Shown here: positions 40,868 through 59,707 of the stretch, in pieces
Numbering within the stretch: position 1 is the first letter of the stretch
Layout: each line of letters begins with the position of its first letter
The notes under the pieces: model-generated
Told to the model about the DNA's origin: nothing
The model's input: only the letters and a program-made list of their open reading frames with translations
Databases searched by the model: none
Assembly (NCBI GenBank): GCA_029262235.1
Contig: JAJCZU010000002.1
Span: 1,142,927 to 1,206,926 of the forward strand
DNA: 64,000 nt
Origin: Candidatus Eiseniibacteriota bacterium
GTDB taxonomy: Bacteria > Orphanbacterota > Orphanbacteria > Orphanbacterales > Orphanbacteraceae
Reading direction: 5' to 3'
Program-made: the position numbers and the translations under genes

Positions 40868-40869
40868 GA

Positions 40870-42708
40870 TTAAAGGATCTCATCCAGTATGCGCTGTGCC
40901 GCTTCCGTTCGCCCGAACGGCGCGGCAATTTGAACGCCTTGTGTGTTGTTCTTCATATGGCGGAATGTTTCGAGTGCGATTGCGAGCCCTTCCTCGCGCG
41001 CGTCCTCGCGTGAATCGCACTTTCTGAGGCGCTCGATCACATCCGCGGGCACCGAACATCCCGGCACTTCGTTGTTCATGAACTCCGCGTTCCGCAGAGA
41101 CTGCAGCGGCCAGAGGCCCGCGATCACGGGAACGTCGAATCGCTCCACTTTCTCGAGAAAGCGATTCAGAACATCGAGATCGAACACGGGTTGCGTAATA
41201 ATGTACTCGGCGCCGGCCTCGAGCTTCCAGTAAAGCCGCTTCAGTTCCTGGTCGAGGTTCAGCGCGCCCGGATCCGCTCCGACGCCGATGCAGAATCCTG
41301 CCGGCTCTCCGATCGGATTCGCGGCGATGTCGAGCCCGTGATTCAGGCGGTTCAAGATATTCGTAAGTCCGATCGAGTCGATATCGAACACGGCCGTTGC
41401 GTCCGGATAGTTCCCGAGCTTCGGCGGATCGCCCGTGATGGCCAGTATGTTGCGGACGCCGAGCGCCCACGCACCCAGAAGATCGCTCTGGATCCCGATC
41501 ACGTTCCTGTCGCGGCACGCGTAATGAAGCACCGCTTCGATACCGACCTCGCGTTGAATCTGGATCGCGAGGGAGAGTGCGCTCATGCGCGCCATCGCGC
41601 GCGGTCCGTCGGGAATATTGATGCAGTCGACGCCGAGCACGTGCATCCTGCGCGCGGCTTCGAGCTCCTTTTTCGCGCTCGTGCCACGGGGGGCCACGAG
41701 CTCGACGAGCGTCACGAAGCGCCCGGTCGCGAGCTTCCCGCCCAGGCGACTCTTGTCGTACAGCGCGCGGGGTTCGACCTCCGGAGGCGCTTCGACCGCT
41801 TCGATCGGAGCGCGCGCGACGACCGACATCGCCGCCTCGGCCCGAAACGTGCGCGCCATCGCTTTCAGATGAGAGGGGGAGACGCCGCAGCATCCCCCGA
41901 CAACACTGGCGCCCGCCTGCAGAAACCGCTTCGTGAAGCTGGCGAGATATTCCGGCGTGCTCAGATAGATATTGCGCCCTTCGACGTCGCGCGGCTTGCC
42001 GGCGTTCGGCATCACGGCGAGCGGCACTTCGGTATTCTCGCGCACCGTTTCGAGCCACTCCAGCATCACGTGCGGGCCGACCGAACAGTTGACGCCCACG
42101 AGATCGGCTCCCACCGAGAGAAGGTCGGTCAGCACCTGCGAGGGGGAAGCGCCCGTCAGTGAACCGGCGTCATCGGTGATCGTGAGCTCCGCCAGGATCG
42201 GAATGTCCGGCGCGATCTGACGGCAGGCGCGCACGGCTTCCGCCAGTTCCGAGTGATACGTGAACGTTTCACATACGAAGAGATCGATGCCGCCCGCAAC
42301 AAGTGCCTCCACCTGCTCCGCGAACATGTCGCGCGCTTCAGACAGCGCAAGGGGGCCGAGCGGTTCGATCTGAACACCGAGAGGGCCGACGCAGCCCGCG
42401 ACCCACACTTCGTCGCCCGCCGCCTGCTGCGCAATCTCCGCCCCGCGACGATTGATTTCGACGACTTGATCCGCAAGCCCGTGTCGCTTCAGTTTCGCGC
42501 GATTCGCGCTGAACGTGTTGGTCGTGAGCACTTCCGCGCCCGCGGCCCTGAATTCCTCGTGCAGAGAGCGCACGAGATCCGGATCGCTGAGATTCACCTG
42601 GTCGAACGACCGGTTGATGTAGACGCCGCGTTCGTAGAGGCTCGTCCCCATGCCGCCGTCGAACAGAACGGGGCCCTGGAGAAGGCGCTCTCGAAACGGG
42701 ATCTTCAT
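40870..42708 (-). CDS. bifunctional homocysteine S-methyltransferase / 5,10-methylenetetrahydrofolate reductase (YitJ-like)
   Basis: N-terminal Hcy-binding domain (VLFDGGMGTSLY) fused to a C-terminal MTHFR-like domain; start taken at MKIPFRERL (42708); the ORF-track start at 42759 is the alternative. Confidence 0.8.
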   Translation of the reverse strand: MKIPFRERLLQGPVLFDGGMGTSLYERGVYINRSFDQVNLSDPDLVRSLHEEFRAAGAEVLTTNTFSANRAKLKRHGLADQVVEINRRGAEIAQQAAGDEVWVAGCVGPLGVQIEPLGPLALSEARDMFAEQVEALVAGGIDLFVCETFTYHSELAEAVRACRQIAPDIPILAELTITDDAGSLTGASPSQVLTDLLSVGADLVGVNCSVGPHVMLEWLETVRENTEVPLAVMPNAGKPRDVEGRNIYLSTPEYLASFTKRFLQAGASVVGGCCGVSPSHLKAMARTFRAEAAMSVVARAPIEAVEAPPEVEPRALYDKSRLGGKLATGRFVTLVELVAPRGTSAKKELEAARRMHVLGVDCINIPDGPRAMARMSALSLAIQIQREVGIEAVLHYACRDRNVIGIQSDLLGAWALGVRNILAITGDPPKLGNYPDATAVFDIDSIGLTNILNRLNHGLDIAANPIGEPAGFCIGVGADPGALNLDQELKRLYWKLEAGAEYIITQPVFDLDVLNRFLEKVERFDVPVIAGLWPLQSLRNAEFMNNEVPGCSVPADVIERLRKCDSREDAREEGLAIALETFRHMKNNTQGVQIAAPFGRTEAAQRILDEIL

Positions 42709-42737
42709 AGCGGGGCCTTCCGTAAGGGGAGAAGGAG

Positions 42738-43259
42738 CTAGCGGTTCGTAATTCCCCACGCATCGAAGCCGACGGCGGGATCGTCATGTGGAATACGGAA
42801 TTCGTCGGACGGGTCGTAGGTCCTGTTCGTGTAGTAGACCATCACCAGATCGTCCCCCGGCATGACCTCGTATCCGTGCGCCACCCCCGCGGGGATGCGA
42901 ACGGCCCGCGGGTAGAGTTCGCCCGCGAAAATCGAGTGCGCCACGCCGTAAGTGGGGGAGTCGACCCGGAAGTCGACAAGCGCAATCCGCGCCTTGCCCA
43001 TGACGGGGAGGAAGATGTCGTCCTGCTTCTTATGATAGTGGAAAGCTTTGATGACGCCAGCCTGGGACCGGGTGGTGGAAGTCTGGCGAAACGTAAAACC
43101 GGCGGCGATGGGGTCGTCATGACGAAAGACCTCGGCGAAGTGGCCGCGATCGTCCGGAAACAGACGAAGAGACCGGATCACGACTCCGTCGATCAGGCCG
43201 TCAGGCGCGTCGCCCTGAACAATGGTGTGAGTGCGAATGTTTGTCGGCTCCAGACGCAT
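42738..43259 (-). CDS. rfbC: dTDP-4-dehydrorhamnose 3,5-epimerase
   Basis: Cupin-type RmlC sequence; ATG at 43259 is preceded by GGAGGAG, so it is preferred over the ORF-track start at 43337. Confidence 0.8.
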   Translation of the reverse strand: MRLEPTNIRTHTIVQGDAPDGLIDGVVIRSLRLFPDDRGHFAEVFRHDDPIAAGFTFRQTSTTRSQAGVIKAFHYHKKQDDIFLPVMGKARIALVDFRVDSPTYGVAHSIFAGELYPRAVRIPAGVAHGYEVMPGDDLVMVYYTNRTYDPSDEFRIPHDDPAVGFDAWGITNR

Positions 43260-43404
43260 GCGTACGTACTCCTCCACGGGCCGGGCGGGCTTTGTGCGTG
43301 CGGAAAACAGAATCTGCGTGTACGATGCCGCAGGCATCCGGCAAGGTCAAGGGGAAAGGGGCTTGCGGCGGCCCTCCGACAAACCCCGTAAGTGCATGGA
43401 AGAC

Positions 43405-43441: not shown

Positions 43442-43454
43442 CGTCACAGTGACG
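43442..43454. promoter_or_regulatory. 13-bp palindrome CGTCACaGTGACG followed by a GTGAC direct repeat (candidate operator)
   Basis: Perfect 6-1-6 inverted repeat immediately downstream of the candidate -10 element. Confidence 0.25.
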
Positions 43455-43576
43455 TGACGACCCTCCCCCGCATCATCCTCAGCAGGAGCATACGTACAAC
43501 GAACCTTGCTATCGAGCGGGACCGAACGAAATCGACGGTTCCATACATCCCTGAAGGACACCACGAGGGAAACTCG

Positions 43577-44218
43577 ATGACCGAGGTTCTACTCTCCCTT
43601 CCCATGGAGAAGCGGAGTACGTATGCATTCGTCAAGCGCGCGGTCGACATTCTGGTCGCCGGCGTTTTCCTTGTTGCATTTTTCCCTCTTTTTCTCATGA
43701 TAGCGTTGCTGATTCGTATCGACTCACCAGGGCCGGTCATCTTTCGGCAGGTCCGCGTGGGAAAAGATGGAAAAAGATTTAACTTCTATAAATTCCGGTC
43801 GATGGTTAAAGATGCGGAGCAAATGAAGCAAAGTCTGCTGGATCAGAACGAAGCGGAACAACCGTTGTTCAAGATTCGTGAGGATCCGCGGATCACACGA
43901 CTGGGTAAGTTCTTGCGGCTCAGCAGCTTGGACGAAGTACCCCAGCTGTTCAACGTTCTGCGCGGCGACCTGACGCTCGTGGGGCCCAGGCCGCATCTTC
44001 CGGAAGAAGTCCGTGAGTACACGGAGGCGCACCGGATCAGGCTGAGTGTGGCGCCGGGAATCACCTGTCTCTGGCAGGCGAATCACCGGTTGTCGACGAA
44101 ATTCGTGGACTGGATCGAGTCGGACATCCGTTACGTGAACGAGCGATCGTTCGCACTCGATCTGAAGATATTGTGGGACACGCTGATCACGGTCCTAAGC
44201 AGGAGAAACGCGGCTTGA
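43577..44218 (+). CDS. short-form sugar phosphotransferase (PglC-like bacterial sugar transferase)
   Basis: About 213 aa with a single N-terminal TM and the C-terminal PRP...DxxY...W catalytic region of the bacterial sugar transferase family; ATG at 43577 preceded by GAGGGA. Confidence 0.8.
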   Translation: MTEVLLSLPMEKRSTYAFVKRAVDILVAGVFLVAFFPLFLMIALLIRIDSPGPVIFRQVRVGKDGKRFNFYKFRSMVKDAEQMKQSLLDQNEAEQPLFKIREDPRITRLGKFLRLSSLDEVPQLFNVLRGDLTLVGPRPHLPEEVREYTEAHRIRLSVAPGITCLWQANHRLSTKFVDWIESDIRYVNERSFALDLKILWDTLITVLSRRNAA

Positions 44219-45078
44219 AACGGATCGCTCTTCTCATGGCCGGCTCACTGGCCGTCTGGATACTCTTCGCGGGTTGCGGTTCGCGCCCCGGTTTCGAGGC
44301 GGACTTCGCGGAAGGCCCTCGTGTGGACGCCCCGGAAAGCGGGATGACCGACGAGGAACTGGACAAGATCCGGCGTGAGGAAGCGGCGCAGCGAAAAACC
44401 GAGTTGCGCGAGATGATCGCGGCCGATCGCCTGCAGGCGGTCGACTCCGAACGCGAGGGCGTGGACATTTACGCAGGGGTGGGACCGTATCGTCTCGGGC
44501 CCGGCGATGTGTTTCTGCTCCGGTTCGCGCCGCAGAACGAAATGAACGCGTCGTTCACGGTGCAGCCCGACGGCATGGTCAACTTCGACCTGATCGGGGA
44601 GCTCCCCGTCGCAGGGATGACGCCGTCCGATCTCGGGAAAACTCTCGAAGAACTGTACGCGGTCTATCTGCGCGATCCGATCATCAACGTCACGATGCGG
44701 GAGACGACCTCCCAGCGGCTTTATGTGTTCGGCGAGGTCACGAGACCGGGCATGTTCGAGCTGAAGAATCCGACCACGCTCACGCACGCGCTCAGCATGG
44801 CGGGCGGGTGGAAGGATTCGGCACGCATGGAAAACGTCATGGTGATCCGCGTCGGCGAGGATGACGTGCCGTTCGCGTTTCAGATCGACATCAAGGAGAT
44901 GCTGGAAGAGCGCGTCGTGCACAGAGACGTCACGCTTCAGAATATGGATATCGTATACGTACCGGAAGGCAGGATCTCGGCGACGGGAGACTGGATCGCG
45001 CGCTTCTTCCGGATCGTGCAGCCGCCGATCGACGCGGCATGGCGCGCTGTCATCGTGAAGAACGGGTTCACTCCGTAG
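44215..45078 (+). CDS. polysaccharide export outer-membrane lipoprotein (Wza/OPX-like)
   Basis: Lipoprotein signal (LAVWILFAGC) then polysaccharide-export-type sequence; TTG start after AGGAGA, overlapping the upstream stop. Confidence 0.7.
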   Translation: MKRIALLMAGSLAVWILFAGCGSRPGFEADFAEGPRVDAPESGMTDEELDKIRREEAAQRKTELREMIAADRLQAVDSEREGVDIYAGVGPYRLGPGDVFLLRFAPQNEMNASFTVQPDGMVNFDLIGELPVAGMTPSDLGKTLEELYAVYLRDPIINVTMRETTSQRLYVFGEVTRPGMFELKNPTTLTHALSMAGGWKDSARMENVMVIRVGEDDVPFAFQIDIKEMLEERVVHRDVTLQNMDIVYVPEGRISATGDWIARFFRIVQPPIDAAWRAVIVKNGFTP

Positions 45079-45126: not shown

Positions 45127-46554
45127 ATGAGCGATCAGGATACGAAAACAGTGGAAAACAACCACCGTCGCGAGGGGGCTACCTCGGAGTCCATCCGCGA
45201 GGGGGGGCAGCTCACCGGGCGCGATATCTTCAAAGTCCTCTTTCGCCGCAAATGGGTCATCCTGCTGCTGTTCCTGACCACACTCGTCTTCGTTCTCTGG
45301 CAGGCGAGTCAGATTCCGACGGAATACCGCGCCACGGCGGAAGTATTGATCAATCGCGGACAGCGCAAGAGCGCGCTCGACAGAAACGTTTCGCTCCTGA
45401 CATGGGACGAAACGGTGGCGACCGAGCTGCAGATCGCCGAGAGTCGTCCGGTCATCAAGAGCGCGCAGGCCGCGCTCAATGCCGAGGCGGAAGCGAACGG
45501 TACCAAACCGATCGAGATCATCGCGAATAAAGTCCGGTCGCGACTCATGGAAGAGTCGAACGTGGTCGGAGTCATGTATACGTCACTCCGCGAGGAAGAC
45601 GCCCGGCCTGTGGCCAACGCGCTCGCGACCGCCTACATCGAGTACCACAAACAGCTCTTCGCGCTTCCCGACGCCACCTCGTTCTTTGTCGAACGCGTGG
45701 CGTCCGCGGAAGAAAACCTGACCGACCTCATGTCGCGTCGCCAGGCGATCAAAGAGGCGGGCACGATCACGCGCATGGCGACGCAGCAGGATCTGCTGCT
45801 CCAGGAAATGCGCACGATCCGCGAATCACTCATGAAGGACGAGAAGGAATACGCGGCGATGCAGACCGAGCTGGAACAGGCGCGACGGCTGTACCGGGGC
45901 GGAGTCGACATGCCGTTCGGCACCACGCGCGACGAGGGGAACGCCGGTCTCGCGCGCATCATGCTGCGTCTCAAGGAAGATCTGCTCAAGCTGAAGCAGA
46001 ACCGCGACCAGCTTCTTACGAAGTACACTCCGCAGCACCCGCAGGTGCTTGCGCTCGACGACCAGATTGAGAAAGTGCAGGAGAGTCTGACGGATGAGAC
46101 GGGCCAGGTTCTGCAGGTCAAGGAATCCGAGATCGCGATCAAGCGCTCCGAGATCCAGGATCTGCGGGAAAGCCTGAACAACCTGAACGCGAAAATGCGG
46201 GAGATGCCGCGGATCGAACGGGAACTGGACGACCTCGACAGGTCCATCGACCTCGCTAGCAAAGCGTACCAGGAACTGCTCGACAACCAGGTGCGCATTC
46301 AGGTGGCCGAAGTAAGCTCACGCGACTTTACGCTGACGCTGCTTTCGGATGCCGGCGCTCCCATCGCAAGCAACCCGCGCGACCCCGTGAGGCTCGCGCT
46401 CGTTCCCGCGTTCAGTCTGTTGGTCGGGGTCAGCCTGGCCTTCTTTCTCGAAACAATGGACCACTCCTTCAAGAGCCGTGAGGACGTGGAACGATATCTC
46501 GATCTTTCGGTGCTGGCTTCCGTGCCCGACCGGAAGAAAGCGTTGACCCGCTGA
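45127..46554 (+). CDS. polysaccharide co-polymerase / chain-length determinant (Wzz/GumC-like)
   Basis: 475 aa; N-terminal TM, long coiled-coil periplasmic region, C-terminal TM. Confidence 0.7.
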   Translation: MSDQDTKTVENNHRREGATSESIREGGQLTGRDIFKVLFRRKWVILLLFLTTLVFVLWQASQIPTEYRATAEVLINRGQRKSALDRNVSLLTWDETVATELQIAESRPVIKSAQAALNAEAEANGTKPIEIIANKVRSRLMEESNVVGVMYTSLREEDARPVANALATAYIEYHKQLFALPDATSFFVERVASAEENLTDLMSRRQAIKEAGTITRMATQQDLLLQEMRTIRESLMKDEKEYAAMQTELEQARRLYRGGVDMPFGTTRDEGNAGLARIMLRLKEDLLKLKQNRDQLLTKYTPQHPQVLALDDQIEKVQESLTDETGQVLQVKESEIAIKRSEIQDLRESLNNLNAKMREMPRIERELDDLDRSIDLASKAYQELLDNQVRIQVAEVSSRDFTLTLLSDAGAPIASNPRDPVRLALVPAFSLLVGVSLAFFLETMDHSFKSREDVERYLDLSVLASVPDRKKALTR

Positions 46555-46566
46555 CGGACGGAATCG

Positions 46567-47343
46567 ATGAGCAAGATTTATGAAGCGCTGAATCGCGCGC
46601 GAGACGACGACGACGATCCGAAGAAGCCGACGCCGCCGACCGAAAAGCCGGTGGGCACCGGTTCGGGCTCGGGTACGCGCGGTGGTTTCGATCCTCGCAT
46701 ACTGAGCGAGGAACTGCAGAAGGTCGCCGTCGACTACGAAGCGCTGCACAGCTCGATGGAGAAGACCCTTTCGACCGTCGCCGGCCATGCGATCATGATG
46801 GTCTCCTCGGTCGAGGAAGAGGGCACGACCACGGTCGCCGCGGAATACGCGAGCACGCTCGGACGCGGCATTCCGCGCGGCACGCTGCTGATCGACGCGA
46901 ACTTCAGGAACCCTACGCTTCACGACGTGTTCGGCGTGCCGAACGATACCGGTTTCGCCGACGTCCTCCAGGAGCGTGTCACCCTGAAGCAGGCCGTGCA
47001 GACGCTTGCCGAAAACGAACTGTATCTGCTGACGGCGGGCCTTGTCGATTTCTCGCCGAGCGCGCGCATTTCGGGTTCTGTCGTCTCCCGGTTTCTCGCC
47101 GAGGCGAAAGCCCAGTACGGCGCCGTCATCCTGGACGGACCTCCCGTCATTCCGTATCCCGAGGCGGTCCACATCGCGAGCGCGGCCGACGGCGTTGTTT
47201 TCATCATCGAGTCGGAACGGACGAAGCGCGAGATCGTCGCGCGGGCGAAGGATGCGCTCGACGCGGTCGATGCCAACATTCTCGGAGTCGTGCTGAATCG
47301 CCGCCGCTATGTCATACCGGAATTCCTGTATCGCCAACTCTAA
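46567..47343 (+). CDS. BY-kinase-like P-loop protein with degenerate Walker A
   Basis: 258 aa; CpsD/CapB-like layout but the Walker A position reads VSSVEEEGTTT with no GK[ST]; Walker B-like VILDGPP is present. Confidence 0.6.
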   Translation: MSKIYEALNRARDDDDDPKKPTPPTEKPVGTGSGSGTRGGFDPRILSEELQKVAVDYEALHSSMEKTLSTVAGHAIMMVSSVEEEGTTTVAAEYASTLGRGIPRGTLLIDANFRNPTLHDVFGVPNDTGFADVLQERVTLKQAVQTLAENELYLLTAGLVDFSPSARISGSVVSRFLAEAKAQYGAVILDGPPVIPYPEAVHIASAADGVVFIIESERTKREIVARAKDALDAVDANILGVVLNRRRYVIPEFLYRQL

Positions 47344-48598
47344 GCCGGACGCCCGCTTGCACTCGACCGATCCGTACACCGCACCTTTCGCGCCCGATCC
47401 GGACGTGGATCAATTCTACCGGGAGAAAGTGCGCGCGGTCGTCGACATCGTGCTCGGCGCATGGAACGGCGAAGCCCCCACTGTGGTGCTGAGCGGAAGT
47501 CTCGCACTCGGCGATGGGCGCGCTACACGCACTCCCGAAGGCCCCGGGCCCGCAAGCGACGTCGACCTCTATCTCGTAACAGAAGAAGCCGCGCACGCCG
47601 CCGCACTCACCGACCTTCCCCGCATCCACGGCGCGCTCCGACGTTCCGACCGCACGTCTGATCTCACGGTCGATCTCGGCGTCACGACTGCCGCGCGCCT
47701 CGCGGCCGCGCCCGTTTCGATCGCAAACCGAACGCTGGCCGAGCACGGACGTGTTCTGACCGGTGATCGGGAGGTGCTCGATGCGATGCGGTCCGTACGG
47801 GGAAGACCGATCCCGCCGGCGGACGGACTGCTGCTGCTGCAGAACCGCACGGTGGAAGCGCTCGTGCCTGTCGCTCTCTTCGGGGACTCATCGATGCACG
47901 ACGCTTTCTGGTATCTTCACGCGAAGACGCTGCGCGATATCGGACTCTCGGCGATTGTCGCCGCCGGGCGTTTCGCTCCGCGACCCGGCGACCGTGCGGA
48001 ACTCGTGCGGGCGACATGGGAAGAGAGTGAGCTCGGCAAGGTCGTTCCCGGTTTTCCCGCACGCTATGAAGAGTCCTCGGGCTCGTCTTCGCGCGGAAGC
48101 GCGCCTTCGCGCGGAAGCGGAAGCAGCGTGCGCGGCGAAACGGCGCTTCGGCGCGCATGGGAAGATCTCGGCACCACTCTGTTCGCCGTGGCGCGATGGG
48201 AGCACCGTACGATCGACCCGCATGCGAGCGACGATCCGAACAGCTGGGTGCGTGCCGGGAGCGGACCGCTTCGGAGGCGGGTCAAATCGTGGCTCCCGTT
48301 TGCCACAGGAGACCCCGGCGCTTTTGCGAAAGCGCTGACCCGGGGATTTCCGGGAACACCGATGCAGGGCGCCTACGTGGCGGCTTCGTGTCTCATGGCA
48401 TCCGCGGGGACCGCATGGGGAGGCGGCGCGCCCGATCAAGGCACGATGATTGCAGGAGCCCGGGCCATCTGCCCGTTCACCGTCAAGGATCGCCGCCCGG
48501 ACGCCGCATGGTGGGAACTCCGGAACGCGATCTGCGAGTACTGGAATGAAACGGTCCTCGGCGGAAGCCGCACGATCGAGAAGGGAGGTCCGCGATGA
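47309..48598 (+). CDS. hypothetical protein, possible nucleotidyltransferase-fold domain
   Basis: 429 aa; weak GS...DxD signature (LSGSLALGDG...SDVDLYLV); internal Ser/Gly-rich linker; start uncertain because it overlaps the upstream gene. Confidence 0.4.
   Translation: MSYRNSCIANSKPDARLHSTDPYTAPFAPDPDVDQFYREKVRAVVDIVLGAWNGEAPTVVLSGSLALGDGRATRTPEGPGPASDVDLYLVTEEAAHAAALTDLPRIHGALRRSDRTSDLTVDLGVTTAARLAAAPVSIANRTLAEHGRVLTGDREVLDAMRSVRGRPIPPADGLLLLQNRTVEALVPVALFGDSSMHDAFWYLHAKTLRDIGLSAIVAAGRFAPRPGDRAELVRATWEESELGKVVPGFPARYEESSGSSSRGSAPSRGSGSSVRGETALRRAWEDLGTTLFAVARWEHRTIDPHASDDPNSWVRAGSGPLRRRVKSWLPFATGDPGAFAKALTRGFPGTPMQGAYVAASCLMASAGTAWGGGAPDQGTMIAGARAICPFTVKDRRPDAAWWELRNAICEYWNETVLGGSRTIEKGGPR
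48087..48119. repeat. imperfect 18-bp tandem direct repeat (cttcgcgcggaagcg core x2) inside the coding sequence
   Basis: Read directly; it encodes the SSRGSAPSRGSGS low-complexity linker. Confidence 0.6.
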
Positions 48599-49749
48599 AG
48601 CGTGCCGTGCTGGCCGTTCTGATCGACGCCTTCGGCTATGACCTGCTCGATCGTCATCCGTTCATGCCGGAACTTGCAGAGCGCAGGCCGCTTGCAACGG
48701 TGGCCGGTTTCAGTTCATCCGCGATCCCGTCGCTCCTGACCGGCAAATGGCCGAACGAGCACGGGCGCTGGTTCCTGTACGGAAAAGCGGGCGAAACGAC
48801 GCCGTTCAGCAACGCGCGTCTCTACGCATGGGCGGAGAATCTGCCGAAGATCGGCATCCGCGCGCGCCAGCGTTATGAACGCGAGTTCGCCCGGACTTCC
48901 GGCATCAACGAGTATTACCATCTCTATAATATACCCTTGAAATATCTCCCCTCGTTCGACCTTCCCGGCAAGCGATCGATCTACGAACCGGGCGCGATCG
49001 AAGGCGTACCGAATCTTTTCGACAAGCTCGTCGAACACGAGATCCCCTACGCGTCCTGGAACTGGAGCACGCCCGAAGAGAAAAACTTCACGGAACTGCA
49101 CGCGACGATCCGCGAGGCGAAGCTTCCGTTCTATTTCCTCTACACGGCCGTGCTCGACGGCGTGATGCACGCGACGGGAACGGATTCGCCGGAAACCCGG
49201 GCGGTCATCGAGAGCAATCAGAAGTCGATTCGCGAGGCGGTGCGCATCGCGGAGGAATGCTACGACGAAGTCTCCCTCTACATTTTCTCGGATCACGGCA
49301 TGGTGAACGTCGAGACCGTGATCGATCTGATGAATGACGTGCGGGCGCTCCCTTTCGTCGAAGGGAAGGACTATCTGCCGTTCTACGACTCGACATACGC
49401 GCGCTTCTGGTTCCGGAACGAGCGCGCGGAGAAAGCGATCCGCGCACTGCTCGACTCCGCGGCGGGGGGCAGGCTGCTGTCACGCGGGGAACTCGAGCGC
49501 CTGCATGTATGGTTCCCGGACCGCGAATACGGCGACGCGATCTTTCTGACGGACGCCGGAACGGTCATCGCGCCGTCGTTCATGGGGAACGAACCGCCCC
49601 GCGCGATGCACGGATACCATCCTGAAGACGCCGGTTCGAACGGGATGCTGGTCGGGAGCCGGTCCATCCCCGCGGGAGTCACCTCGATCATGGATATGGC
49701 GCTCTTTCTCGAGCAGGAAGCGCGGCGCGCCCACGGGACCGGGTCGTGA
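48595..49749 (+). CDS. alkaline-phosphatase-superfamily enzyme (type I phosphodiesterase / nucleotide pyrophosphatase-like)
   Basis: Metal-ligand style motifs LIDAFGYD, SSSAIPSLLTG, FSDHGM, HGYH; 384 aa; ATGA overlap with the upstream gene. Confidence 0.7.
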   Translation: MKRAVLAVLIDAFGYDLLDRHPFMPELAERRPLATVAGFSSSAIPSLLTGKWPNEHGRWFLYGKAGETTPFSNARLYAWAENLPKIGIRARQRYEREFARTSGINEYYHLYNIPLKYLPSFDLPGKRSIYEPGAIEGVPNLFDKLVEHEIPYASWNWSTPEEKNFTELHATIREAKLPFYFLYTAVLDGVMHATGTDSPETRAVIESNQKSIREAVRIAEECYDEVSLYIFSDHGMVNVETVIDLMNDVRALPFVEGKDYLPFYDSTYARFWFRNERAEKAIRALLDSAAGGRLLSRGELERLHVWFPDREYGDAIFLTDAGTVIAPSFMGNEPPRAMHGYHPEDAGSNGMLVGSRSIPAGVTSIMDMALFLEQEARRAHGTGS

Positions 49750-51227
49750 GCACACTCGCGCGCGCCTCGCGGGCAGCCCCTTTCAGCCTCATCGCAAAAG
49801 CCGTCCGTTTCATCCTTTCGTTCGCGACCAGTATTCTGGTCGTGCGCATGCTTCCCGAGAACGAATACGGTGTACTTACGATCGTCCGCACGATCGCGTC
49901 GCTCGCGGGCGCGCTGATCGGCTTCGGAATGGGAAACGCAATCCTGCGCTTCCTGCCCGAACGCGAAGCGCAGGGAGAGGGGACCCGCGCGCTCCTGAAC
50001 TGGGCCGCGCTTCTGCCCATGGCCGCCTGGGCGGTCGTCACCGGCTGCGCGTTTCTGCTTCGCGACTCGATCGACGCCCTCTATGGAACGCCGATCGGAA
50101 CCCCGCTGCTCGCCGGCATCGCCCTGCTTTCCGGGAATCTCCTCTACACGATCCTGATGAACACATGGACGGCAACGTTTCGAACGCGGGAACTCGCGCT
50201 CGTGCAGTCCGTGCTCAGCTTCGCGATCCTGGCCGCTTCGTATGGCGCGATCCGCATGGGCTGGGGCGTGATCGGCGTCCTCGCCGCGAGCTCGCTCCCG
50301 TATCTGCTGGCCGCGATCGTGCGCGGCCCGGCCGTATGGCTGTCGCTCAAGCACGGGGCGGCGAGGCTGCCGGCCGGGCCGCTGCTTGCATACGGCATCC
50401 CCGTGGCGTTCGTCGACATTCTGAACCAGATCACGTGGCGCCAGTCCGAAACGATTCTGCTCGGGCATTACACGTCGGCCGCCGCGGCCGGCACGTTCGA
50501 TATCGCGTACAAGCTCCCGCAGCTGCTCGTCGAATTCGTGCCCGACACGATCTGGCCGCTCGTTCTGGCGGCATTCGCCGAGGTGTACACGCGGGACCGC
50601 TCCCGTCTCGACGAGATGATCCGGCGGTACTACCAGGTGCTTTTTCTGCTCGTGCTCCCCGTCAGCGTGTTCGGTGTGCTCTACGGGGACCTTCTGATTC
50701 AGACGGCCTACGGCGCGGAACGGGCCGAAGCCGGGCAGTACGCGCGGATCTTCTTTTTCATCTTTCATCTCACGTTCTGGGGCACGCCGCTCTCGATGGC
50801 CCTCTATCTTCTGAAGAAGACGAACGTGAATCTCTGGCTCGCGCTGGTGGCCGCCACGGTGAACGTCGGCCTCGACTTCGTGATGATTCCGAAGTACGGG
50901 CTGCGCGGGGCGGTGCCTCCGGTCGCGATCGCGGTCGCGCTGACGGCGATTCTCCGCGGAATCACGCTCCGGCGCATGCACGGGACGCTTCCCATACCAT
51001 GGCGATTTCTCGGCCGGGCCTATCTGGCAACGGCCCCGCTCGCGATTTTTTACCCGATTCGGGGCATGGGATCGCCTCAGACGGCTCTTTGTGCGATCAG
51101 TGCTTTGTCTCTTTTGCTGTTGCCCTTTACAATAAGGTTCGCGCGACTGCTCGGCGACGAGGAGCGCGAGTATCTCAGGCAGTCGGGCATTCCCGGACGC
51201 GAAATTCTCCTCCGGTGGTTCCGTTGA
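49746..51227 (+). CDS. polysaccharide flippase (Wzx, MOP superfamily)
   Basis: 493 aa polytopic membrane protein with Wzx-like N-terminus; GTG start overlapping the upstream stop. Confidence 0.75.
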   Translation: MSTLARASRAAPFSLIAKAVRFILSFATSILVVRMLPENEYGVLTIVRTIASLAGALIGFGMGNAILRFLPEREAQGEGTRALLNWAALLPMAAWAVVTGCAFLLRDSIDALYGTPIGTPLLAGIALLSGNLLYTILMNTWTATFRTRELALVQSVLSFAILAASYGAIRMGWGVIGVLAASSLPYLLAAIVRGPAVWLSLKHGAARLPAGPLLAYGIPVAFVDILNQITWRQSETILLGHYTSAAAAGTFDIAYKLPQLLVEFVPDTIWPLVLAAFAEVYTRDRSRLDEMIRRYYQVLFLLVLPVSVFGVLYGDLLIQTAYGAERAEAGQYARIFFFIFHLTFWGTPLSMALYLLKKTNVNLWLALVAATVNVGLDFVMIPKYGLRGAVPPVAIAVALTAILRGITLRRMHGTLPIPWRFLGRAYLATAPLAIFYPIRGMGSPQTALCAISALSLLLLPFTIRFARLLGDEEREYLRQSGIPGREILLRWFR

Positions 51228-51983: not shown

Positions 51984-54452
51984 ATGTTGTCCGTGCGCAT
52001 CGCCCGTACTCTCGTTCTCGTCACGCTGTTCGCGATCGCGCGCAGCCCTTTCTTTACGAGCCTCGCTCTTCCCCCGTTCGTTACGATGTCCGCCGCGCTT
52101 CTCGCCATCGTGCTCCCGGGCATCTGGCTCGCGCAGGCGGTGCGCGGAATCGACGATTCGCCCGCCGCCGCAATCTGCTGGGGATTCGCCTTCTCTCTCG
52201 CGCTCGTGTCAGCCGGTTCGATCGCGTTTCATCTTACGGGAGCGTTCGGCCTCGGCGCGCTTCTCGCCCTTGTCATGGTATGCGGGTACGCGATCGCTCT
52301 GCTCGTGCCGCCCCGGGCAGAATCAACGCCGCTTCTTGCCCGCGCCGAAACCTGGCTGCTCGTCGCAACCGTGGCGATCACGGCACTCGTGTCCTCACCG
52401 CGAACCGGCTACCTGACCGACGCGTACGATCATCTCGGCACGGTGCGCTGGATGACGATCGAGGATCGCGCCTATCCGGTCGAGTCGTTTCACGCGGACC
52501 GCGCGGCGGCGGGCACGCTCGATCCACGCAAGGGGACGTATCACACGACTTTCGCGCTCGCGAGCGACCTGACGGGCGTCGATCCGGTCGACGGCTACCG
52601 GACGTTCTGGGCGTTCACGCTGCTGCTCGCATTTGCTTCCGTGCTCACCGCGGCGCGCGCCTTTCTGACCGGAGAACGCGCCGCCTGGATCGCGTTCATT
52701 CTGTTCGTGGTGCTGCATCGCGGCGGCCCCGCGGGAGAGTGGTTCTCGACGGCGGGCTACCCGGGCTCGGCCGGGCTCTGGCTCTACCTGCTTTTCGTTT
52801 CGGTGATCGTACGCGGGCGCATGGCGCGCATGGCGCGCATGCCGCGCATGGCGTTGATCGCGCTCGGATTCGCGACGCTCGGCGTACATCTTTTCTACGG
52901 ACTGCTGGCCGGCCTCGCATTCCTGTATCTGTTCGCGGGGCTCTTGATCTTCCGCCGCGCGGAGGGCGCAGGCCTGGTGCTGCGCGGGGCGATCGCGTTC
53001 GGCGCGGGCGCATTGCCCGTCGCGATCTTTCGCTATTTCGCCACGTACGATCCCGCCAACCCGATCCATCTGCACCGTCAGGCCGTGATCGAACTGACCG
53101 ACCGGCTGGCGGTACTCGACGCGACCCCCGTTCTGCAGGCGTTCGGCATCGGCGGTCTGATCGCGCTGTTCTTTCTGCCGTTTCTCGACTGGCGCGGCAG
53201 AGACGAACAGGGGGGGCGGGGCGACCTGTTTCTGGGAACCTCGCTTGCCGGCACGTTCCTGATCGTATGGAATCCGATCGTGTTTCCGGCTCTCGAACCA
53301 CACCTCGGTTATCTCATGCGCCGGATTCCGTACGCGGTTCCGTGGGCCTTCGTCTTCGCGGCTGTCATGACCCGGACCATGGGGCCCGTCGGAACACCGG
53401 GCAGGACATCGATCTCCCGGGGCCGGCGCTCGATCGCGTGGGCGGCTCTGGCCGTCGTGGTCATTACCGCAGGCTGGGACGCGACACGCAGGCGTCCGCC
53501 CCGCGCAAAACCCGCGGCGGGCGTCGAAGAGATCGCGCAGCAGGTCGTGGCGGACGCGGCGAAACTGCTCCCGCCCGGCACGACGGTCCTGACCGATCCC
53601 GTAACCGGATACGTGCTCTTCGGGCGCACCTCGCTCCGGCCGGTTGCCATTCTCGACCAGCACTCGTCGCCGAACGATCCGCTGGCCGCACGCCGCCTCT
53701 CCGAAAGCCAGCGCGCGCTTCACCCCGCAACGAGCGAAGCCGAACGCCTGGACGTCATGAACCAGTACGAAACCCGTCACATTCTGCTCGTGACGGGGTA
53801 TCCCCGCGATTTTCAGACATACAACGCGTTCTATTCGCCCGGAATGGCGTCCACGATGGACGCGGTTCTCACCGGCCGGACGACGTTCGACACGATCATG
53901 CGCACCGAACAGGCCGTGCTCTACCGTCTGGACGGCCGTGAATCGGTCGTGCCGCCGGGTGACCGTCGCCCCTGGGCCACAGCGGGCTCGCTCACGCGCC
54001 CCGGGGGCCCCGCGGACCTCCCGGGGGGCATCAGGCTCACGGGAGCGCGTCTCGGGACGTCTGAGGGGCGTCCGGGAGATCTCGTGTGGCTCGAAAGTGA
54101 GTGGACGCTCCCTCATGAGGATGCCGGGGCCGTGCCGATGCTTCTTTATATAACGGGAGTCCGGCTGGAGGAGGGCTCCGATCCTGTGAGAACGCGTGCG
54201 GAGAGGCCCTGGAAGATCTTCTCCCTCGGCGGCCGTGAATTTCCGTATCTTCTCTGGAAGAAGAAGGAGCGGATCGCGTATGACGCCCCGCTTCGGATTC
54301 CGGAGCGGATCGCGCCTGGCCGGTACGAAGTGCAGGTCACGACGGATCGGCATCCGTTTTTCGCCGTGCGCAGACTTGAGAGGAACGGCCTTCGCTGGAG
54401 CGCCGCCCGCACGGGTTGGACGGCCGTTGATACAGTCGAGGTGATGCCTTGA
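51984..54452 (+). CDS. large polytopic membrane protein, unknown family (GT-C-like candidate), paralogue 1
   Basis: 822 aa; multiple N-terminal TM helices plus a C-terminal soluble domain; shares sequence blocks with the 55944..58451 product. Confidence 0.6.
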   Translation: MLSVRIARTLVLVTLFAIARSPFFTSLALPPFVTMSAALLAIVLPGIWLAQAVRGIDDSPAAAICWGFAFSLALVSAGSIAFHLTGAFGLGALLALVMVCGYAIALLVPPRAESTPLLARAETWLLVATVAITALVSSPRTGYLTDAYDHLGTVRWMTIEDRAYPVESFHADRAAAGTLDPRKGTYHTTFALASDLTGVDPVDGYRTFWAFTLLLAFASVLTAARAFLTGERAAWIAFILFVVLHRGGPAGEWFSTAGYPGSAGLWLYLLFVSVIVRGRMARMARMPRMALIALGFATLGVHLFYGLLAGLAFLYLFAGLLIFRRAEGAGLVLRGAIAFGAGALPVAIFRYFATYDPANPIHLHRQAVIELTDRLAVLDATPVLQAFGIGGLIALFFLPFLDWRGRDEQGGRGDLFLGTSLAGTFLIVWNPIVFPALEPHLGYLMRRIPYAVPWAFVFAAVMTRTMGPVGTPGRTSISRGRRSIAWAALAVVVITAGWDATRRRPPRAKPAAGVEEIAQQVVADAAKLLPPGTTVLTDPVTGYVLFGRTSLRPVAILDQHSSPNDPLAARRLSESQRALHPATSEAERLDVMNQYETRHILLVTGYPRDFQTYNAFYSPGMASTMDAVLTGRTTFDTIMRTEQAVLYRLDGRESVVPPGDRRPWATAGSLTRPGGPADLPGGIRLTGARLGTSEGRPGDLVWLESEWTLPHEDAGAVPMLLYITGVRLEEGSDPVRTRAERPWKIFSLGGREFPYLLWKKKERIAYDAPLRIPERIAPGRYEVQVTTDRHPFFAVRRLERNGLRWSAARTGWTAVDTVEVMP
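52817..52852. repeat. tandem repeat, 4 copies of a 9-bp unit gcgcatggc (third copy gcgcatgcc)
   Basis: Read directly; in frame, encoding RMARMARMPRMA within paralogue 1. Confidence 0.8.
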
Positions 54453-55930
54453 AACGACAATCGACGATAGGAAAAGTGCTGAGCCCGCAACTCATCTGGG
54501 CGCTCTTCACCATTGCGCTCACGATGGTGCTCGGCTACGTGCTCGCGGGACAGATCATCTCGCCGAATCAGCGCATCATCAAAGCCTCGGTCGGTCTCGC
54601 GCTTCTCACGACGGCGTTTCTGCTTCCGAACCGCTTCGCCGTGGCGTTCATGCTTTTCGCGATCCCGTTTCCGCAGAACACGACCATTGGATCGACAACG
54701 GTCATCTTCGCGTTCATCATCTTTTCGTTCTGGCTCCTCAAGATGGCTCTCGGGTACGAAAAACCTCCGATCCTCACAGGTCTCGAGCCGTGGCTCGTCG
54801 CCATCGTGCTTCTCTACTTCATCTCGTTCGTCATGGTGCAACCGAACGAAATGAAGCAGGCGGTTGCGGGCTTCCAGACTTTCATTTCCGCTGTCTTCAT
54901 CTTTTATCTCGTCACGAACATGGTGCGAACCGAACGCGACATTCAATTCGTTCTGAACGCGCTGATCATTTCGTTTTCCGTTGTGGCCACGATCGCGATG
55001 ATCGAACTCTGGCTGCCGGGCGCGGCCGACAAGCTCGGGTTCCTGAAGGTTTCCACGCGCACGGTGGGGAAGGCGTCGGGCGTGCGCGTCGGCTCCGTAT
55101 TCGGCGACTACGAAATGTTCGCGGAGTACTGCGCGATCTTCATACCGATTCTTCTGATTCGCGTGATCGGCGAGAAAGTATTCCTGCGCCAGTTCATCTG
55201 GATGCCGCTTCTGGGCGTCGCCATCATGCTTCTGATCGGCACCGCTACGCGCGGCGCGTTTCTGAGCATGCTCATCGGCCTGACTTACCTGGTCTGGATT
55301 TCGTGGCGCATCATGGACTTTCAGAAGTTTCTGCCGCTCGTTATCGTCGCGGCCGTCGCGTTCTACGTATTCGCCATTACGCTCGACCAGTACACCGAAT
55401 CGGCGTCGCTGTTCGGGCGGCTCGGAAGAACGAAGCTCGTCGACGGAATGCCGGACACGAGGGCCCGCGTCTGGAACGAAGCGTGGATTCGCATTCAGGA
55501 CTCGCCCTGGATCGGCCATGGGCCTTACTACTTCACCGGCGTCGACGAGCGAAACGTGCATTCGAATTACCCGCACAGCCTGTTTCTCTTTCTGGCGCAC
55601 ATGATCGGCATCCCGGGCGCCGTGCTTTTTTACGGCTTTCTGCTCGCCATTTTCAGGCGGGGCTACATGGCGGCCCGGGCTTTCGCAACGGAGCGAGGTC
55701 AGTTCGCCTATACCGTGGTGATTCTATCGAGCTGCATGGTTATTTTTCTGATCGACGAATTCAAAATCTCGTTCCTGCGGTACGATCAGACGCAGCAGTT
55801 CACGTGGACGATGTTCGCGCTCGTTCTCGCCGCGAGCCGCGTGGCCATGATGCGCGTGGAAGAACGCAAGAACCAAAACCTGCCAGCGACTCTGCGCAGG
55901 AACGCGACCCGCTCCGCGCGCATCGCCTGA
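54449..55930 (+). CDS. O-antigen polymerase / ligase family protein (Wzy-like)
   Basis: 493 aa polytopic protein with a Wzy_C-like block (GTATRGAFLSM...WIGHGPYYF...HSNYPH); TTG start overlapping the upstream stop. Confidence 0.7.
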   Translation: MKRQSTIGKVLSPQLIWALFTIALTMVLGYVLAGQIISPNQRIIKASVGLALLTTAFLLPNRFAVAFMLFAIPFPQNTTIGSTTVIFAFIIFSFWLLKMALGYEKPPILTGLEPWLVAIVLLYFISFVMVQPNEMKQAVAGFQTFISAVFIFYLVTNMVRTERDIQFVLNALIISFSVVATIAMIELWLPGAADKLGFLKVSTRTVGKASGVRVGSVFGDYEMFAEYCAIFIPILLIRVIGEKVFLRQFIWMPLLGVAIMLLIGTATRGAFLSMLIGLTYLVWISWRIMDFQKFLPLVIVAAVAFYVFAITLDQYTESASLFGRLGRTKLVDGMPDTRARVWNEAWIRIQDSPWIGHGPYYFTGVDERNVHSNYPHSLFLFLAHMIGIPGAVLFYGFLLAIFRRGYMAARAFATERGQFAYTVVILSSCMVIFLIDEFKISFLRYDQTQQFTWTMFALVLAASRVAMMRVEERKNQNLPATLRRNATRSARIA

Positions 55931-59676: not shown

Positions 59677-59707
59677 CACGCCCGGCCTGATCCCTTTCGC
59701 GGAGACC

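What the first reader, a model, noticed from the sequence alone, without database searches (positions are those of the whole stretch)
46567..47343. BY-kinase-like protein with a degenerate Walker A (predicted pseudokinase)
At the position where bacterial tyrosine kinases carry GxxGxGK[ST], the protein reads VSSVEEEGTTT: the invariant lysine and a glycine are replaced. A Walker B-like hydrophobic-D stretch is retained and there is no C-terminal tyrosine cluster. It may be a non-catalytic regulator of the Wzz/Wza machinery rather than an autokinase.
Basis: partly seen in the sequence, partly recalled or inferred. Interest (0 to 1): 0.55.

Follow-up and report, generated by a model that had tools for sequence, protein, structure and literature searches.

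The report
Lysine-less tyrosine-kinase-like polysaccharide export subunit
This gene encodes a bacterial tyrosine-kinase look-alike that has lost its catalytic lysine and most likely works as a non-catalytic scaffold for the sugar-polymer export machinery; such "pseudokinases" were described in 2025-2026, so it is a correct but not a new kind of finding.

Summary
ORF 46567-47343 (+, 258 aa) is a clear BY-kinase homologue (CapB E=3.5e-21). In the alignment, CapB's Walker A SEAPGAGKST lies opposite SSVEEEGTTT, giving Lys->Thr87 and Gly->Glu84. The second Walker A' aspartate is Asn112. Walker B Asp190 is kept. There is no Tyr cluster.

This is a family trait rather than a one-off. Of 250 relatives, 219 lack Lys/Arg at that position (T/A/C/V/S/N). 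Of those, 212 end in the same short tail, NRRR-Y-x-I-P-x-F-L-Y-x-x-L, in place of a Tyr-rich tail, and 185 also carry Asn in Walker A'.

The gene is under strong purifying selection (dN/dS 0.04). It always follows a kinase-less PCP whose C-terminus resembles the CapA activator peptide, and a short OPX lies upstream. No second BY-kinase and no LMW-PTP motif was found in the window.

PslE shares GEG-V-T and the NRRRFEVP tail start.

Verdict: a new member of a known kind. One question stays open: the rest of the nucleotide pocket is almost invariant, so the protein may still bind nucleotide.

The parts
46567..47343 (+). Stand-alone BY-kinase-like gene (258 aa plus stop), predicted pseudokinase
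   Evidence: ORF. TIGR01007 106.3 bits, just under its 108.05 cut-off. CapB E=3.5e-21. AF2 pLDDT 81, with fold matches to CapAB, Etk, VpsO and Wzc. dN/dS 0.04 against the L085 orthologue.
46567..46602 (+). Conserved N-terminal helix MSKIYEALNRAR (residues 1-12)
   Evidence: MSKIYEALxKA is present in most full-length relatives. It is modelled as a helix at low confidence. Its role was not tested.
46804..46833 (+). Degenerate Walker A: SSVEEEGTTT (residues 80-89), with Thr87 at the Lys position (nt 46825-46827) and Glu84 at a Gly position
   Evidence: Alignment to CapB SEAPGAGKST. Among the 219 Lys-less relatives: G86 100%, [ST]88 100%, T89 89%. Position 87 reads T116/A47/C21/V15/S12/N6.
46885..46914 (+). 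Walker A'-like LLIDANFRNP (residues 107-116): Asp110 kept, second Asp replaced by Asn112
   Evidence: Aligned to CapB LIVDGDMRKP. Asn at position 112 in 185 of 219 Lys-less relatives, against Asp in 27 of 31 Lys/Arg-bearing relatives.
47122..47145 (+). Walker B-like AVILDGPP (residues 186-193), Asp190 kept
   Evidence: Aligned to CapB FVIIDTPP. Asp190 is present in 218 of 219 Lys-less relatives.
47296..47340 (+). C-terminal tail NRRRYVIPEFLYRQL (residues 244-258), which takes the place of the Tyr cluster
   Evidence: Among the 219 Lys-less relatives: I250 92%, P251 99%, F/W253 81%, Y255 78%. The tail is present in 212 of 219 Lys-less relatives but in only 5 of 31 Lys/Arg-bearing ones. PslE reads NRRRFEVPSK at the same place. 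The tail is modelled at low confidence, as expected for a segment that docks on a partner.
45127..46554 (+). Partner polysaccharide co-polymerase (PCP-2 type, 475 aa) without a kinase domain
   Evidence: Matches TIGR03017 EpsF, TIGR03007 and Pfam Wzz. Residues 306-468 align to Wzc 314-474, which ends where the Wzc kinase domain starts. It lies directly upstream of the pseudokinase in L001, L003, L085 and L086; in L004 one AAA gene lies between them.
46471..46551 (+). Cytoplasmic C-terminal peptide of the PCP (KSREDVERYLDLSVLASVPDRKKALTR), resembling the CapA activator fragment
   Evidence: BLASTP against the CapA part of the CapAB chimera: 12/27 identical, E=3e-4 for this single comparison. 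Binding to the pseudokinase is inferred from the CapA/CapB and EpsV/EcpK precedents (PMC12004946).
44173..45078 (+). Short OPX (Wza-like) export protein
   Evidence: Poly_export plus SLBB domains. Aligns only to Wza 85-251, and also to PslD.
43454..44218 (+). Small phosphoglycosyl transferase (Bac_transf), first gene of the conserved block
   Evidence: Pfam E=1.8e-64. Same position in L001, L085 and L086.
49746..51227 (+). Wzx-type flippase of the same cluster
   Evidence: Polysacc_synt_3 and Polysacc_synt.
54449..55930 (+). Wzy-type polymerase candidate of the same cluster
   Evidence: Wzy_C, E=7.9e-17. Same position in L001 and L086.

Best explanation
The gene encodes a stand-alone bacterial-tyrosine-kinase (BY-kinase) homologue that can no longer phosphorylate. 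Together with the kinase-less co-polymerase encoded just upstream it forms a two-part PCP-2 of a Wzx/Wzy-dependent exopolysaccharide pathway.

Shown here:
- The fold and the homology to BY-kinases.
- Loss of the Walker A lysine (Thr87), of a P-loop glycine (Glu84), of the second Walker A' aspartate (Asn112), of the ExxRxxR arginines and of the Tyr cluster.
- These losses define a large, old family that is under purifying selection.
- A fixed gene order: phosphoglycosyl transferase, short OPX, PCP, this gene.

Inferred:
- The protein docks on the CapA-like C-terminal peptide of the PCP and assembles with it into a ring under the membrane, as CapB, Wzc and PslE do.
- The conserved tail (Y-x-I-P-x-F-L-Y) reaches the membrane interface, the trans-membrane helices of a neighbouring PCP and the Wzy polymerase, as the PslE tail does. 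In this way it supports polymerisation and export by protein-protein contacts, with no phosphorylation/dephosphorylation cycle.

Open: whether the otherwise intact pocket (G86, S/T88, T89, D110, D190, N244) still binds a nucleotide as a structural or switching ligand.
For: Homology and motif mapping:
- CapB E=3.5e-21 with a residue-level alignment.
- TIGR01007 scores 106.3 bits; no Pfam P-loop family is hit.
- AF2 pLDDT 81; best folds are CapAB, Etk, VpsO and Wzc.

Family statistics:
- 219 of 250 relatives lack Lys/Arg at position 87, and the replacement varies.
- 212 of those 219 carry the IPxF tail, against 5 of 31 Lys/Arg-bearing relatives.
- Asn112 is present in 185 of 219, against Asp in 27 of 31.

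Selection: dN 0.022, dS 0.546 against the 95%-identical orthologue.

Context:
- Identical synteny in a Gemmatimonadetes MAG (L085), in L086 and in an Eisenbacteria MAG (L001).
- The OPX-PCP-this-gene order is also seen in Binatia (L003) and in L004.
- The PCP stops at the equivalent of Wzc residue 474 and ends in a CapA-like peptide.
- No second BY-kinase in the window or in five related loci. No LMW-PTP signature. No phosphatase family among the ORFs scanned from 25.7 to 63.8 kb.

Precedent:
- EcpK binds the PCP EpsV and is needed for EPS. HfsB stabilises HfsA (PMC12004946).
- PslE lacks the lysine and the Y cluster. Cross-linked octamers still work, and deleting its C-terminal tail abolishes Psl production and weakens binding of the polymerase PslJ (PMC13434223).
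- PslE shares 'GEG-V-T' and 'NRRRFEVP' with this family.
Against: - There is no biochemical or genetic evidence for this protein or for any close relative.
- Apart from Lys87 and Asp112, the nucleotide-site residues are almost invariant across phyla. A pure scaffold would not be expected to keep them; EcpK, by contrast, has lost all Walker motifs (PMC12004946).
- A tyrosine (Y255) is conserved in the tail and could in principle be a phospho-acceptor.
- PDB entry titles show that Wzc K540M still holds MgADP, so loss of the lysine does not by itself abolish nucleotide binding.
- The rest of the genome could not be searched for an active BY-kinase or a phosphatase.
- Similarity of the tail to PslE covers only the first 7-8 residues.
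Confidence: 0.75

Rival explanations
1. Nucleotide-binding but non-phosphorylating switch. The Lys-less pocket still binds ATP or ADP-Mg, and occupancy, not tyrosine phosphorylation, controls ring assembly or the grip on the PCP.
For: Among the 219 Lys-less relatives the rest of the pocket is almost fully conserved: G86 100%, [ST]88 100%, T89 89%, an acidic residue at 110 in 99.5%, D190 99.5%, N244 99%. Solved Wzc K540M structures are titled as MgADP complexes.
Against: The replacement at position 87 is not constrained (T/A/C/V/S/N/G/W). No compensating invariant Lys or Arg was found near the motifs; the only strongly basic conserved run is R245-R247, at the start of the tail. The Mg/phosphate-contacting second Asp of Walker A' is also lost. 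PslE, a relative, has deleted the whole Walker A' region.
Confidence: 0.17
2. It is still an active autokinase that uses a non-canonical basic residue, supplied in cis or by the PCP peptide, in place of the Walker A lysine, and phosphorylates Tyr248 and/or Tyr255.
For: Y255 is conserved in 78% of relatives and lies about where the CapB Tyr cluster lies. Walker B and the first Walker A' Asp are kept. Databases name these proteins 'tyrosine autokinase'.
Against: Lys is absent in 219 of 250 relatives, with apolar or small replacements. The second Walker A' Asp and the ExxRxxR arginines are also lost. In the Binatia-type branch Y255 is Glu (tails such as 'SYIPAFLENLL'). No phosphatase was found next to the gene. 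The database names are automatic transfers from family models. The protein falls below the TIGR01007 cut-off.
Confidence: 0.05
3. It is a substrate or decoy of a separate, active BY-kinase encoded elsewhere in the genome, by analogy with eukaryotic pseudokinase/kinase pairs.
For: The conserved tail tyrosine. The rest of the genome was not available to search.
Against: No second BY-kinase lies in the window or in 20 kb around five relatives. In M. xanthus the pseudokinase EcpK does not depend on the two active BY-kinases (PMC12004946). The gene is strictly coupled to its own PCP.
Confidence: 0.03

Closest known systems
PslE of Pseudomonas aeruginosa (PCP-2 with a tyrosine-kinase-like domain; cryo-EM structures 9v6l/9v75, PMC13434223)
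   Same: Its kinase-like domain lacks the Walker A lysine within the same 'GEG-x-T' context: TSARHGEGVTF against SSVEEEGTTTV. Walker B reads hhhhD-A-P. There is no Tyr cluster. The tail begins with the same NRRR-[YF]-x-[IV]-P junction. It is paired with a short OPX, PslD, which the window's OPX also matches. Its tail is required for function and for polymerase binding, and its function does not need octamer disassembly (paper).
   Different: PslE is one polypeptide, with PCP and domain fused; here the two are separate genes. The PslE domain is cut down: it lacks the Walker A' region, roughly residues 95-175 of this protein, and the profile matches only positions 59-92 and 176-245. The PslE tail is longer and different after the proline. 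Overall similarity is weak (E about 1e-3).
EcpK (MXAN_7447) / EpsV of Myxococcus xanthus, and HfsB / HfsA of Caulobacter crescentus: stand-alone BY pseudokinases with a kinase-less PCP-2 (PMC12004946)
   Same: The same architecture and logic: a stand-alone BY-kinase-fold protein without catalytic residues or a Tyr tail, working with a PCP-2 that lacks a kinase domain in a Wzx/Wzy pathway. The contact is proposed to go through the PCP's cytoplasmic C-terminus, as in CapA/CapB.
   Different: EcpK has lost all three Walker motifs and several secondary-structure elements, ends in a Lys/Arg-rich helix without Tyr, and is not encoded next to epsV (paper). The protein here keeps a full-length domain, Walker B, most of Walker A and A', has a different and highly conserved tail, and lies directly after its PCP.
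CapB / CapA of Staphylococcus aureus (canonical two-part PCP-2b with an active BY-kinase; 3bfv, 2ved, 4jlv)
   Same: The best sequence and fold match (E=3.5e-21; Foldseek E about 3e-13). It is likewise a stand-alone protein encoded after its PCP. The PCP C-terminus resembles the CapA activator peptide.
   Different: CapB has GAGKST, DGDMR, the ExxRxxR motif and a YYAYY tail, and it autophosphorylates. All four features are altered here.
GumC of Xanthomonas campestris, called a possible 'pseudo-BY-kinase' in a review (PMC9800525)
   Same: The same idea of a phosphorylation-independent PCP with a kinase-like cytosolic part and no Y cluster.
   Different: Only the review's statement was used; no sequence comparison was made here.

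Membership tests
Active BY-kinase (CpsD/CapB/Wzc type; NCBIfam TIGR01007) | P-loop (MinD/ParA-like) BY-kinase fold and sequence homology | tested here: met
   CapB E=3.5e-21. Foldseek places the model on CapAB, Etk, VpsO and Wzc with probability 1.00.
Active BY-kinase (CpsD/CapB/Wzc type; NCBIfam TIGR01007) | Walker A GxxxxGK[ST] with the catalytic lysine | tested here: not met
   Thr87 is aligned to CapB Lys55 and Glu84 to a Gly. There is no GK[ST] in the protein (and the sequence itself).
Active BY-kinase (CpsD/CapB/Wzc type; NCBIfam TIGR01007) | Walker A' hhhhDxDxR with both aspartates | tested here: not met
   The motif reads LLIDANFR: Asp110 is kept and the second Asp is Asn112.
Active BY-kinase (CpsD/CapB/Wzc type; NCBIfam TIGR01007) | Walker B hhhhDxxP | tested here: met
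   AVILD190GPP is aligned to CapB FVIIDTPP.
Active BY-kinase (CpsD/CapB/Wzc type; NCBIfam TIGR01007) | C-terminal tyrosine-rich cluster (the phosphorylation sites) | tested here: not met
   The tail is RRRYVIPEFLYRQL: two separated Tyr within a fixed motif. Lys-bearing relatives instead end in YYY-type tails.
Active BY-kinase (CpsD/CapB/Wzc type; NCBIfam TIGR01007) | ExxRxxR oligomerisation motif in the helix before the P-loop | tested here: not met
   CapB E-K-F-R-G-I-R lies opposite V55-D-Y-E58-A-L-H61. The family consensus keeps only E55 (45%) and R/K61 (60%).
Active BY-kinase (CpsD/CapB/Wzc type; NCBIfam TIGR01007) | Score at or above the curated family cut-off | tested here: not met
   106.3 bits against a cut-off of 108.05. 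No Pfam P-loop family (ParA, AAA_31, CbiA) is hit at E<=0.01.
XrtA/PEP-CTERM-associated tyrosine autokinase (TIGR03018) and EpsG (TIGR03029) | Score at or above the curated cut-off | tested here: not met
   91.8 bits against 230.65, and 84.7 against 313.8. More distant family members (L003, L004) do lie next to sigma-54 response-regulator and AAA_16/AAA_22 ATPase genes, which I recall (not tested) as typical of XrtA/PEP-CTERM loci.
[quoted passage not shown] | BY-kinase fold, but catalytic residues and Tyr-rich tail missing | tested here: met
[quoted passage not shown] | Partner PCP-2 lacks its own kinase domain, within a Wzx/Wzy cluster | tested here: met
   The 475-aa PCP ends at the equivalent of Wzc residue 474. 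Wzx, Wzy_C, a phosphoglycosyl transferase and an OPX are in the cluster.
[quoted passage not shown] | Direct binding to the cytoplasmic C-terminus of the PCP | not testable with these tools
   The only indirect support is that the PCP C-terminus resembles the CapA activator peptide. No multimer modelling or experiment was possible.
[quoted passage not shown] | No kinase activity, and required for polysaccharide synthesis | not testable with these tools
   This needs biochemistry and genetics.
PslE-type kinase-like domain (PMC13434223) | Walker A lysine replaced within GEG-x-[ST], and a tail starting NRRR-[YF]-x-[IV]-P | tested here: met
   The PslE orthologue ORF in L046 reads TSARHGEGVTF and NRRRFEVPSKVLQTIARYRSAF.
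PslE-type kinase-like domain (PMC13434223) | Domain fused to the PCP and shortened (no Walker A' region) | tested here: not met
   Here the gene is separate and the domain is full-length. The profile matches PslE only at positions 59-92 and 176-245.

The most novel reading that the evidence does not exclude
The Lys-less 'IPxF-tail' proteins may be neither kinases nor inert scaffolds. They would form a distinct, very widespread class that keeps a working nucleotide pocket (invariant G86, S/T88, D190, N244) but has discarded the phosphotransfer residues Lys87 and Asp112. Nucleotide occupancy, instead of tyrosine phosphorylation, would then time ring assembly of the co-polymerase. That would be a third regulatory mode for Wzx/Wzy export. 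It would also mean that many genes now annotated as 'tyrosine autokinase' are mis-named.
Probability: 0.17. Interest if true: 0.55.

Novelty: new member of a known kind. Interest (0 to 1): 0.3.

Why it matters
BY-kinases are thought to time capsule and exopolysaccharide polymerisation through cycles of tyrosine phosphorylation. Recent work on EcpK, HfsB and PslE shows that some pathways manage without such cycles.

This locus adds a well-defined member, and with it a large family spread across several phyla that has a clear sequence signature:
- GEG-[TACVS]-[ST]-T in place of GEGK[ST]T;
- D-x-N in place of D-x-D;
- an NRRR-Y-x-I-P-x-F-L-Y tail in place of a Tyr cluster.

The signature could be used to correct the current automatic annotation of these genes as 'tyrosine autokinase'. 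It could also help choose tractable members for testing whether a Lys-less pocket still binds nucleotide. It does not open a new kind of biology.

Tried and rejected
- Looked for a lysine-bearing P-loop elsewhere in the protein. There is none. The Gly-rich stretch at residues 30-40 is a disordered, lineage-specific linker.
- Looked for a second BY-kinase by tblastn of seven canonical relatives against the window, and by a six-frame profile search of five related loci. Only the one gene was found each time.
- Looked for a cognate phosphatase. There is no CxGNxCRS signature in six frames. The generic CX5R hits are out-of-frame noise. No phosphatase family was found among the ORFs scanned from 25.7 to 63.8 kb. 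The ORFs between 1 and 25 kb were not scanned against Pfam.
- Considered a decaying pseudogene. Rejected, because dN/dS is 0.04.
- Plasmid collection, tblastn: only canonical kinases were found, and most alignments start after the P-loop. No family member was found.
- Tried to obtain full-length PslE from the protein database with a 44-aa fragment. Only C-terminal fragments came back. The sequence was obtained instead from Pseudomonas genome loci.
- A fused Lys-less member (P0148) does not hit PslE in the PDB search, so PslE is a distant relative and not a close one.
- The AFDB Foldseek library was unavailable, so EcpK and HfsB could not be ranked against the model.
- The 2009 Cuthbertson review is not held in the library.
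Full report
**What is there.** The ORF at 46567-47343 on the + strand is real and encodes 258 aa. Its start is secure, because the N-terminus MSKIYEAL recurs in well over a hundred homologues. The antisense ORF that overlaps it is the usual by-product of high G+C content.

NCBIfam places the protein with the polysaccharide tyrosine autokinases. TIGR01007 scores 106.3 bits, just under the curated cut-off of 108.05. TIGR03018 scores 91.8 against 230.65. No Pfam P-loop family is hit at all.

Against the PDB the best matches are the S. aureus CapA/CapB chimeras (E=3.5e-21), followed by VpsO, Etk, BceF and Wzc. An AlphaFold2 model built on 36 homologues has a mean pLDDT of 81. It is confident from residue 48 to 245, and disordered at residues 13-39 and in the last 11 residues. 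Foldseek places it on CapAB, Etk, VpsO and Wzc with probability 1.00.

**The observation.** The HMMER alignment to CapB gives the following mapping.
- Walker A: SSVEEEGTTT (residues 80-89) lies opposite SEAPGAGKST, so the lysine is Thr87 and a P-loop glycine is Glu84.
- Walker A': LLIDANFRNP lies opposite LIVDGDMRKP, so the first Asp is kept and the second is Asn112.
- Walker B: AVILD190GPP lies opposite FVIIDTPP, so this motif is kept.
- Oligomerisation motif: CapB's ExxRxxR lies opposite V55..E58..H61.

After the last strand (GVVLN) the protein ends in RRRYVIPEFLYRQL. That tail has two tyrosines but no cluster. There is no GK[ST] anywhere in the protein. The Gly-rich stretch at residues 30-40 lies in a disordered linker that is absent from most relatives. 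Two things should be added: the Walker A' change, and the conserved tail.

**It is a family trait.** The word-indexed search found 103 relatives. The exhaustive profile search found 27,685 cluster representatives at E<=1e-30, a count that includes canonical kinases, and the best 150 were inspected. I aligned all 250 that cover the motif to the profile.

Of these 250, 219 have no Lys or Arg at position 87. The replacements are T 116, A 47, C 21, V 15, S 12, N 6, G 1 and W 1. Such variety is what one expects of a position that no longer does chemistry.

Three traits go together:

| Trait | 219 Lys-less relatives | 31 Lys/Arg-bearing relatives |
|---|---|---|
| Ends in the [YF]-x-[IV]-P-x-[FW]-[LI]-Y-x-x-L tail | 212 | 5 |
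| Residue at position 112 (second Walker A' Asp) | Asn in 185 | Asp in 27 |

By contrast, the rest of the pocket is almost invariant among the Lys-less proteins: G86 100%, S/T88 100%, T89 89%, Asp or Glu at 110 in 99.5%, D190 99.5%, N244 99%.

Sources name these proteins 'CpsD/CapB family tyrosine-protein kinase', 'tyrosine autokinase', 'YveL', 'ExoP' or 'Mrp ATPase'. These are family-model transfers, and for the kinase names they are probably wrong.

Named members come from Gemmatimonadetes, Eisenbacteria, Latescibacterota and Binatia MAGs. Fused PCP-plus-domain versions also exist, for example P0148, P0154, P0166 and P0195.

**The gene is functional.** Against the 95%-identical orthologue in a Gemmatimonadetes MAG (L085), dN is 0.022 and dS is 0.546, a ratio of 0.04.

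**Context.** In the window the gene order is as follows:

| Coordinates | Product |
|---|---|
| 43454-44218 | small phosphoglycosyl transferase |
| 44173-45078 | short OPX (Poly_export + SLBB) |
| 45127-46554 | PCP |
| 46567-47343 | this gene |
| 47309-48598 | conserved ORF without any family hit |
| 48595-49749 | Phosphodiest-family protein |
| 49746-51227 | Wzx |
| 51264-51938 | GT2 |
| 51984-54452 | large membrane protein |
| 54449-55930 | Wzy_C |

The same order is found in L085, in L086 and in an Eisenbacteria MAG (L001). The core OPX-PCP-this-gene order also occurs in Binatia (L003) and in L004.

The PCP aligns to Wzc residues 314-474 and stops where the Wzc kinase domain begins. Its last 27 residues (KSREDVERYLDLSVLASVPDRKKALTR) match the CapA peptide that activates CapB, with 12 of 27 identical. 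The pseudokinase itself aligns to Wzc 513-678. Together the two genes amount to a split Wzc.

The OPX aligns only to Wza 85-251, and also to PslD.

No second BY-kinase is present in the 64 kb window or in 20 kb around five relatives. No LMW-PTP signature occurs in any frame. No phosphatase family was found among the ORFs scanned from 25.7 to 63.8 kb.

**What is already known.** BY pseudokinases are published.
- Blocher et al. 2025 (PMC12004946) show that M. xanthus EcpK has the BY-kinase fold, lacks all Walker motifs and the Tyr tail, binds the kinase-less PCP EpsV and is needed for EPS.
- The same paper groups C. crescentus HfsB/HfsA with EcpK/EpsV and proposes a third, phosphorylation-independent PCP-2 subfamily that is widespread in Gram-negative bacteria. 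It names Syntrophus and Acidiphilium pairs as examples, along with fused variants.
- A 2026 cryo-EM study of PslD-PslE (PMC13434223) reports that the PslE kinase-like domain lacks the catalytic lysine and the Y cluster. Disulfide-locked octamers remain functional. The C-terminal tail (645-662) sits at the membrane interface near TMH2 of the neighbouring protomer, and deleting it abolishes Psl production and weakens binding of the polymerase PslJ.
- A 2022 review had already called GumC a possible pseudo-BY-kinase (PMC9800525).

**Relation to PslE.** I recovered a PslE orthologue from a Pseudomonas paraeruginosa locus (L046). Its P-loop reads TSARHGEGVTF, with Lys replaced by Val in the same GEG-x-T context. 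Its Walker B reads VVLLDAPA. Its tail begins NRRRFEVPSK, against NRRRYVIPEF here. PslE, however, lacks the whole Walker A' region: the family profile matches it only at positions 59-92 and 176-245. It is also fused to its PCP. The protein in the window is therefore a fuller, stand-alone relative of the PslE domain. It is clearly less eroded than EcpK is described to be.

**Mechanism.**
- Shown: the fold, the motif losses, the family-wide co-variation of those losses, purifying selection and the fixed gene neighbourhood.
- Inferred: the protein docks on the CapA-like C-terminal peptide of its PCP and forms a ring under the membrane. It uses the conserved IPxF tail at the membrane/PCP/Wzy interface, as PslE does, to support polymerisation and export without a phosphorylation cycle. 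I give this a probability of about 0.75.
- Open: why the remaining nucleotide-site residues are so well kept. PDB titles show that Wzc K540M still holds MgADP, so a nucleotide-binding but non-phosphorylating switch is a real alternative (about 0.17).
- Unlikely: a cryptic active kinase (about 0.05) or a decoy of another kinase (about 0.03).

**Verdict.** The thing is a new member of a kind described in 2025-2026, so the surprise for a specialist is small. The useful by-products are a crisp signature for a large, mis-annotated family and the question of nucleotide binding. Interest is 0.3.

Noticed in passing
window 47309-48598 (+): This ORF (429 aa as listed) lies directly downstream of the pseudokinase; its true start is probably after 47343, as in L085. 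It has no Pfam, NCBIfam or PDB hit, yet it keeps this position in L001, L085 and L086 (415-426 aa). By eye it carries 'GSLALGDG...SDVDLYLV', which looks like a Pol-beta-type nucleotidyltransferase motif.
   Followed up: partly
window 46552-46569: The PCP gene and the pseudokinase gene are in the same reading frame, separated only by TGA plus 12 nt. Together they align to Wzc 314-474 and 513-678, like a split Wzc. Fused Lys-less versions exist elsewhere (P0148, P0154, P0166, P0195).
   Followed up: partly
window 44173-45078 (+): The OPX protein is short. It has only Poly_export plus SLBB domains and aligns to Wza 85-251 and to PslD, with no equivalent of the Wza outer-membrane helix. A separate outer-membrane partner may therefore be needed; none was identified.
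   Followed up: partly
window 43454-44218 (+) and 59648-61195 (+): The same region holds two phosphoglycosyl transferases: a small Bac_transf-only protein at the head of the cluster, and a large CoA_binding_3 plus Bac_transf protein about 15 kb downstream.
   Followed up: no
window 51984-54452 (+), 55944-58451 (+), 58534-59919 (-): Three large ORFs inside or next to the cluster have no Pfam hit. The counterpart of the first in L001 has only a faint DUF6541 hit. The first two keep their positions in L001 and L086.
   Followed up: no
window 37394-42759 (-): A methionine synthase gene and a fused S-methyl_trans/MTHFR gene, plus a dTDP-sugar epimerase-like gene at 42738-43337, lie divergently upstream of the cluster. 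The same arrangement is seen in L001, L085 and L086, so the synteny extends beyond the polysaccharide genes.
   Followed up: no
L003 1-2726 and L004 8466-9875 and 18228-19631: More distant Lys-less family members (Binatia and others) lie next to AAA_16/AAA_22 ATPase genes and sigma-54 response-regulator genes. I recall (not tested here) that these are typical of XrtA/PEP-CTERM exopolysaccharide loci, which suggests the family spans both that type of cluster and the type seen here.
   Followed up: no
window 46603-46704 (residues 13-46): An acidic, Pro- and Gly-rich linker (DDDDDPKKPTPPTEKPVGTGSGSGTRGG) lies between the N-terminal helix and the domain. It is specific to this lineage, disordered in the model, and a gap in most relatives.
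   Followed up: partly
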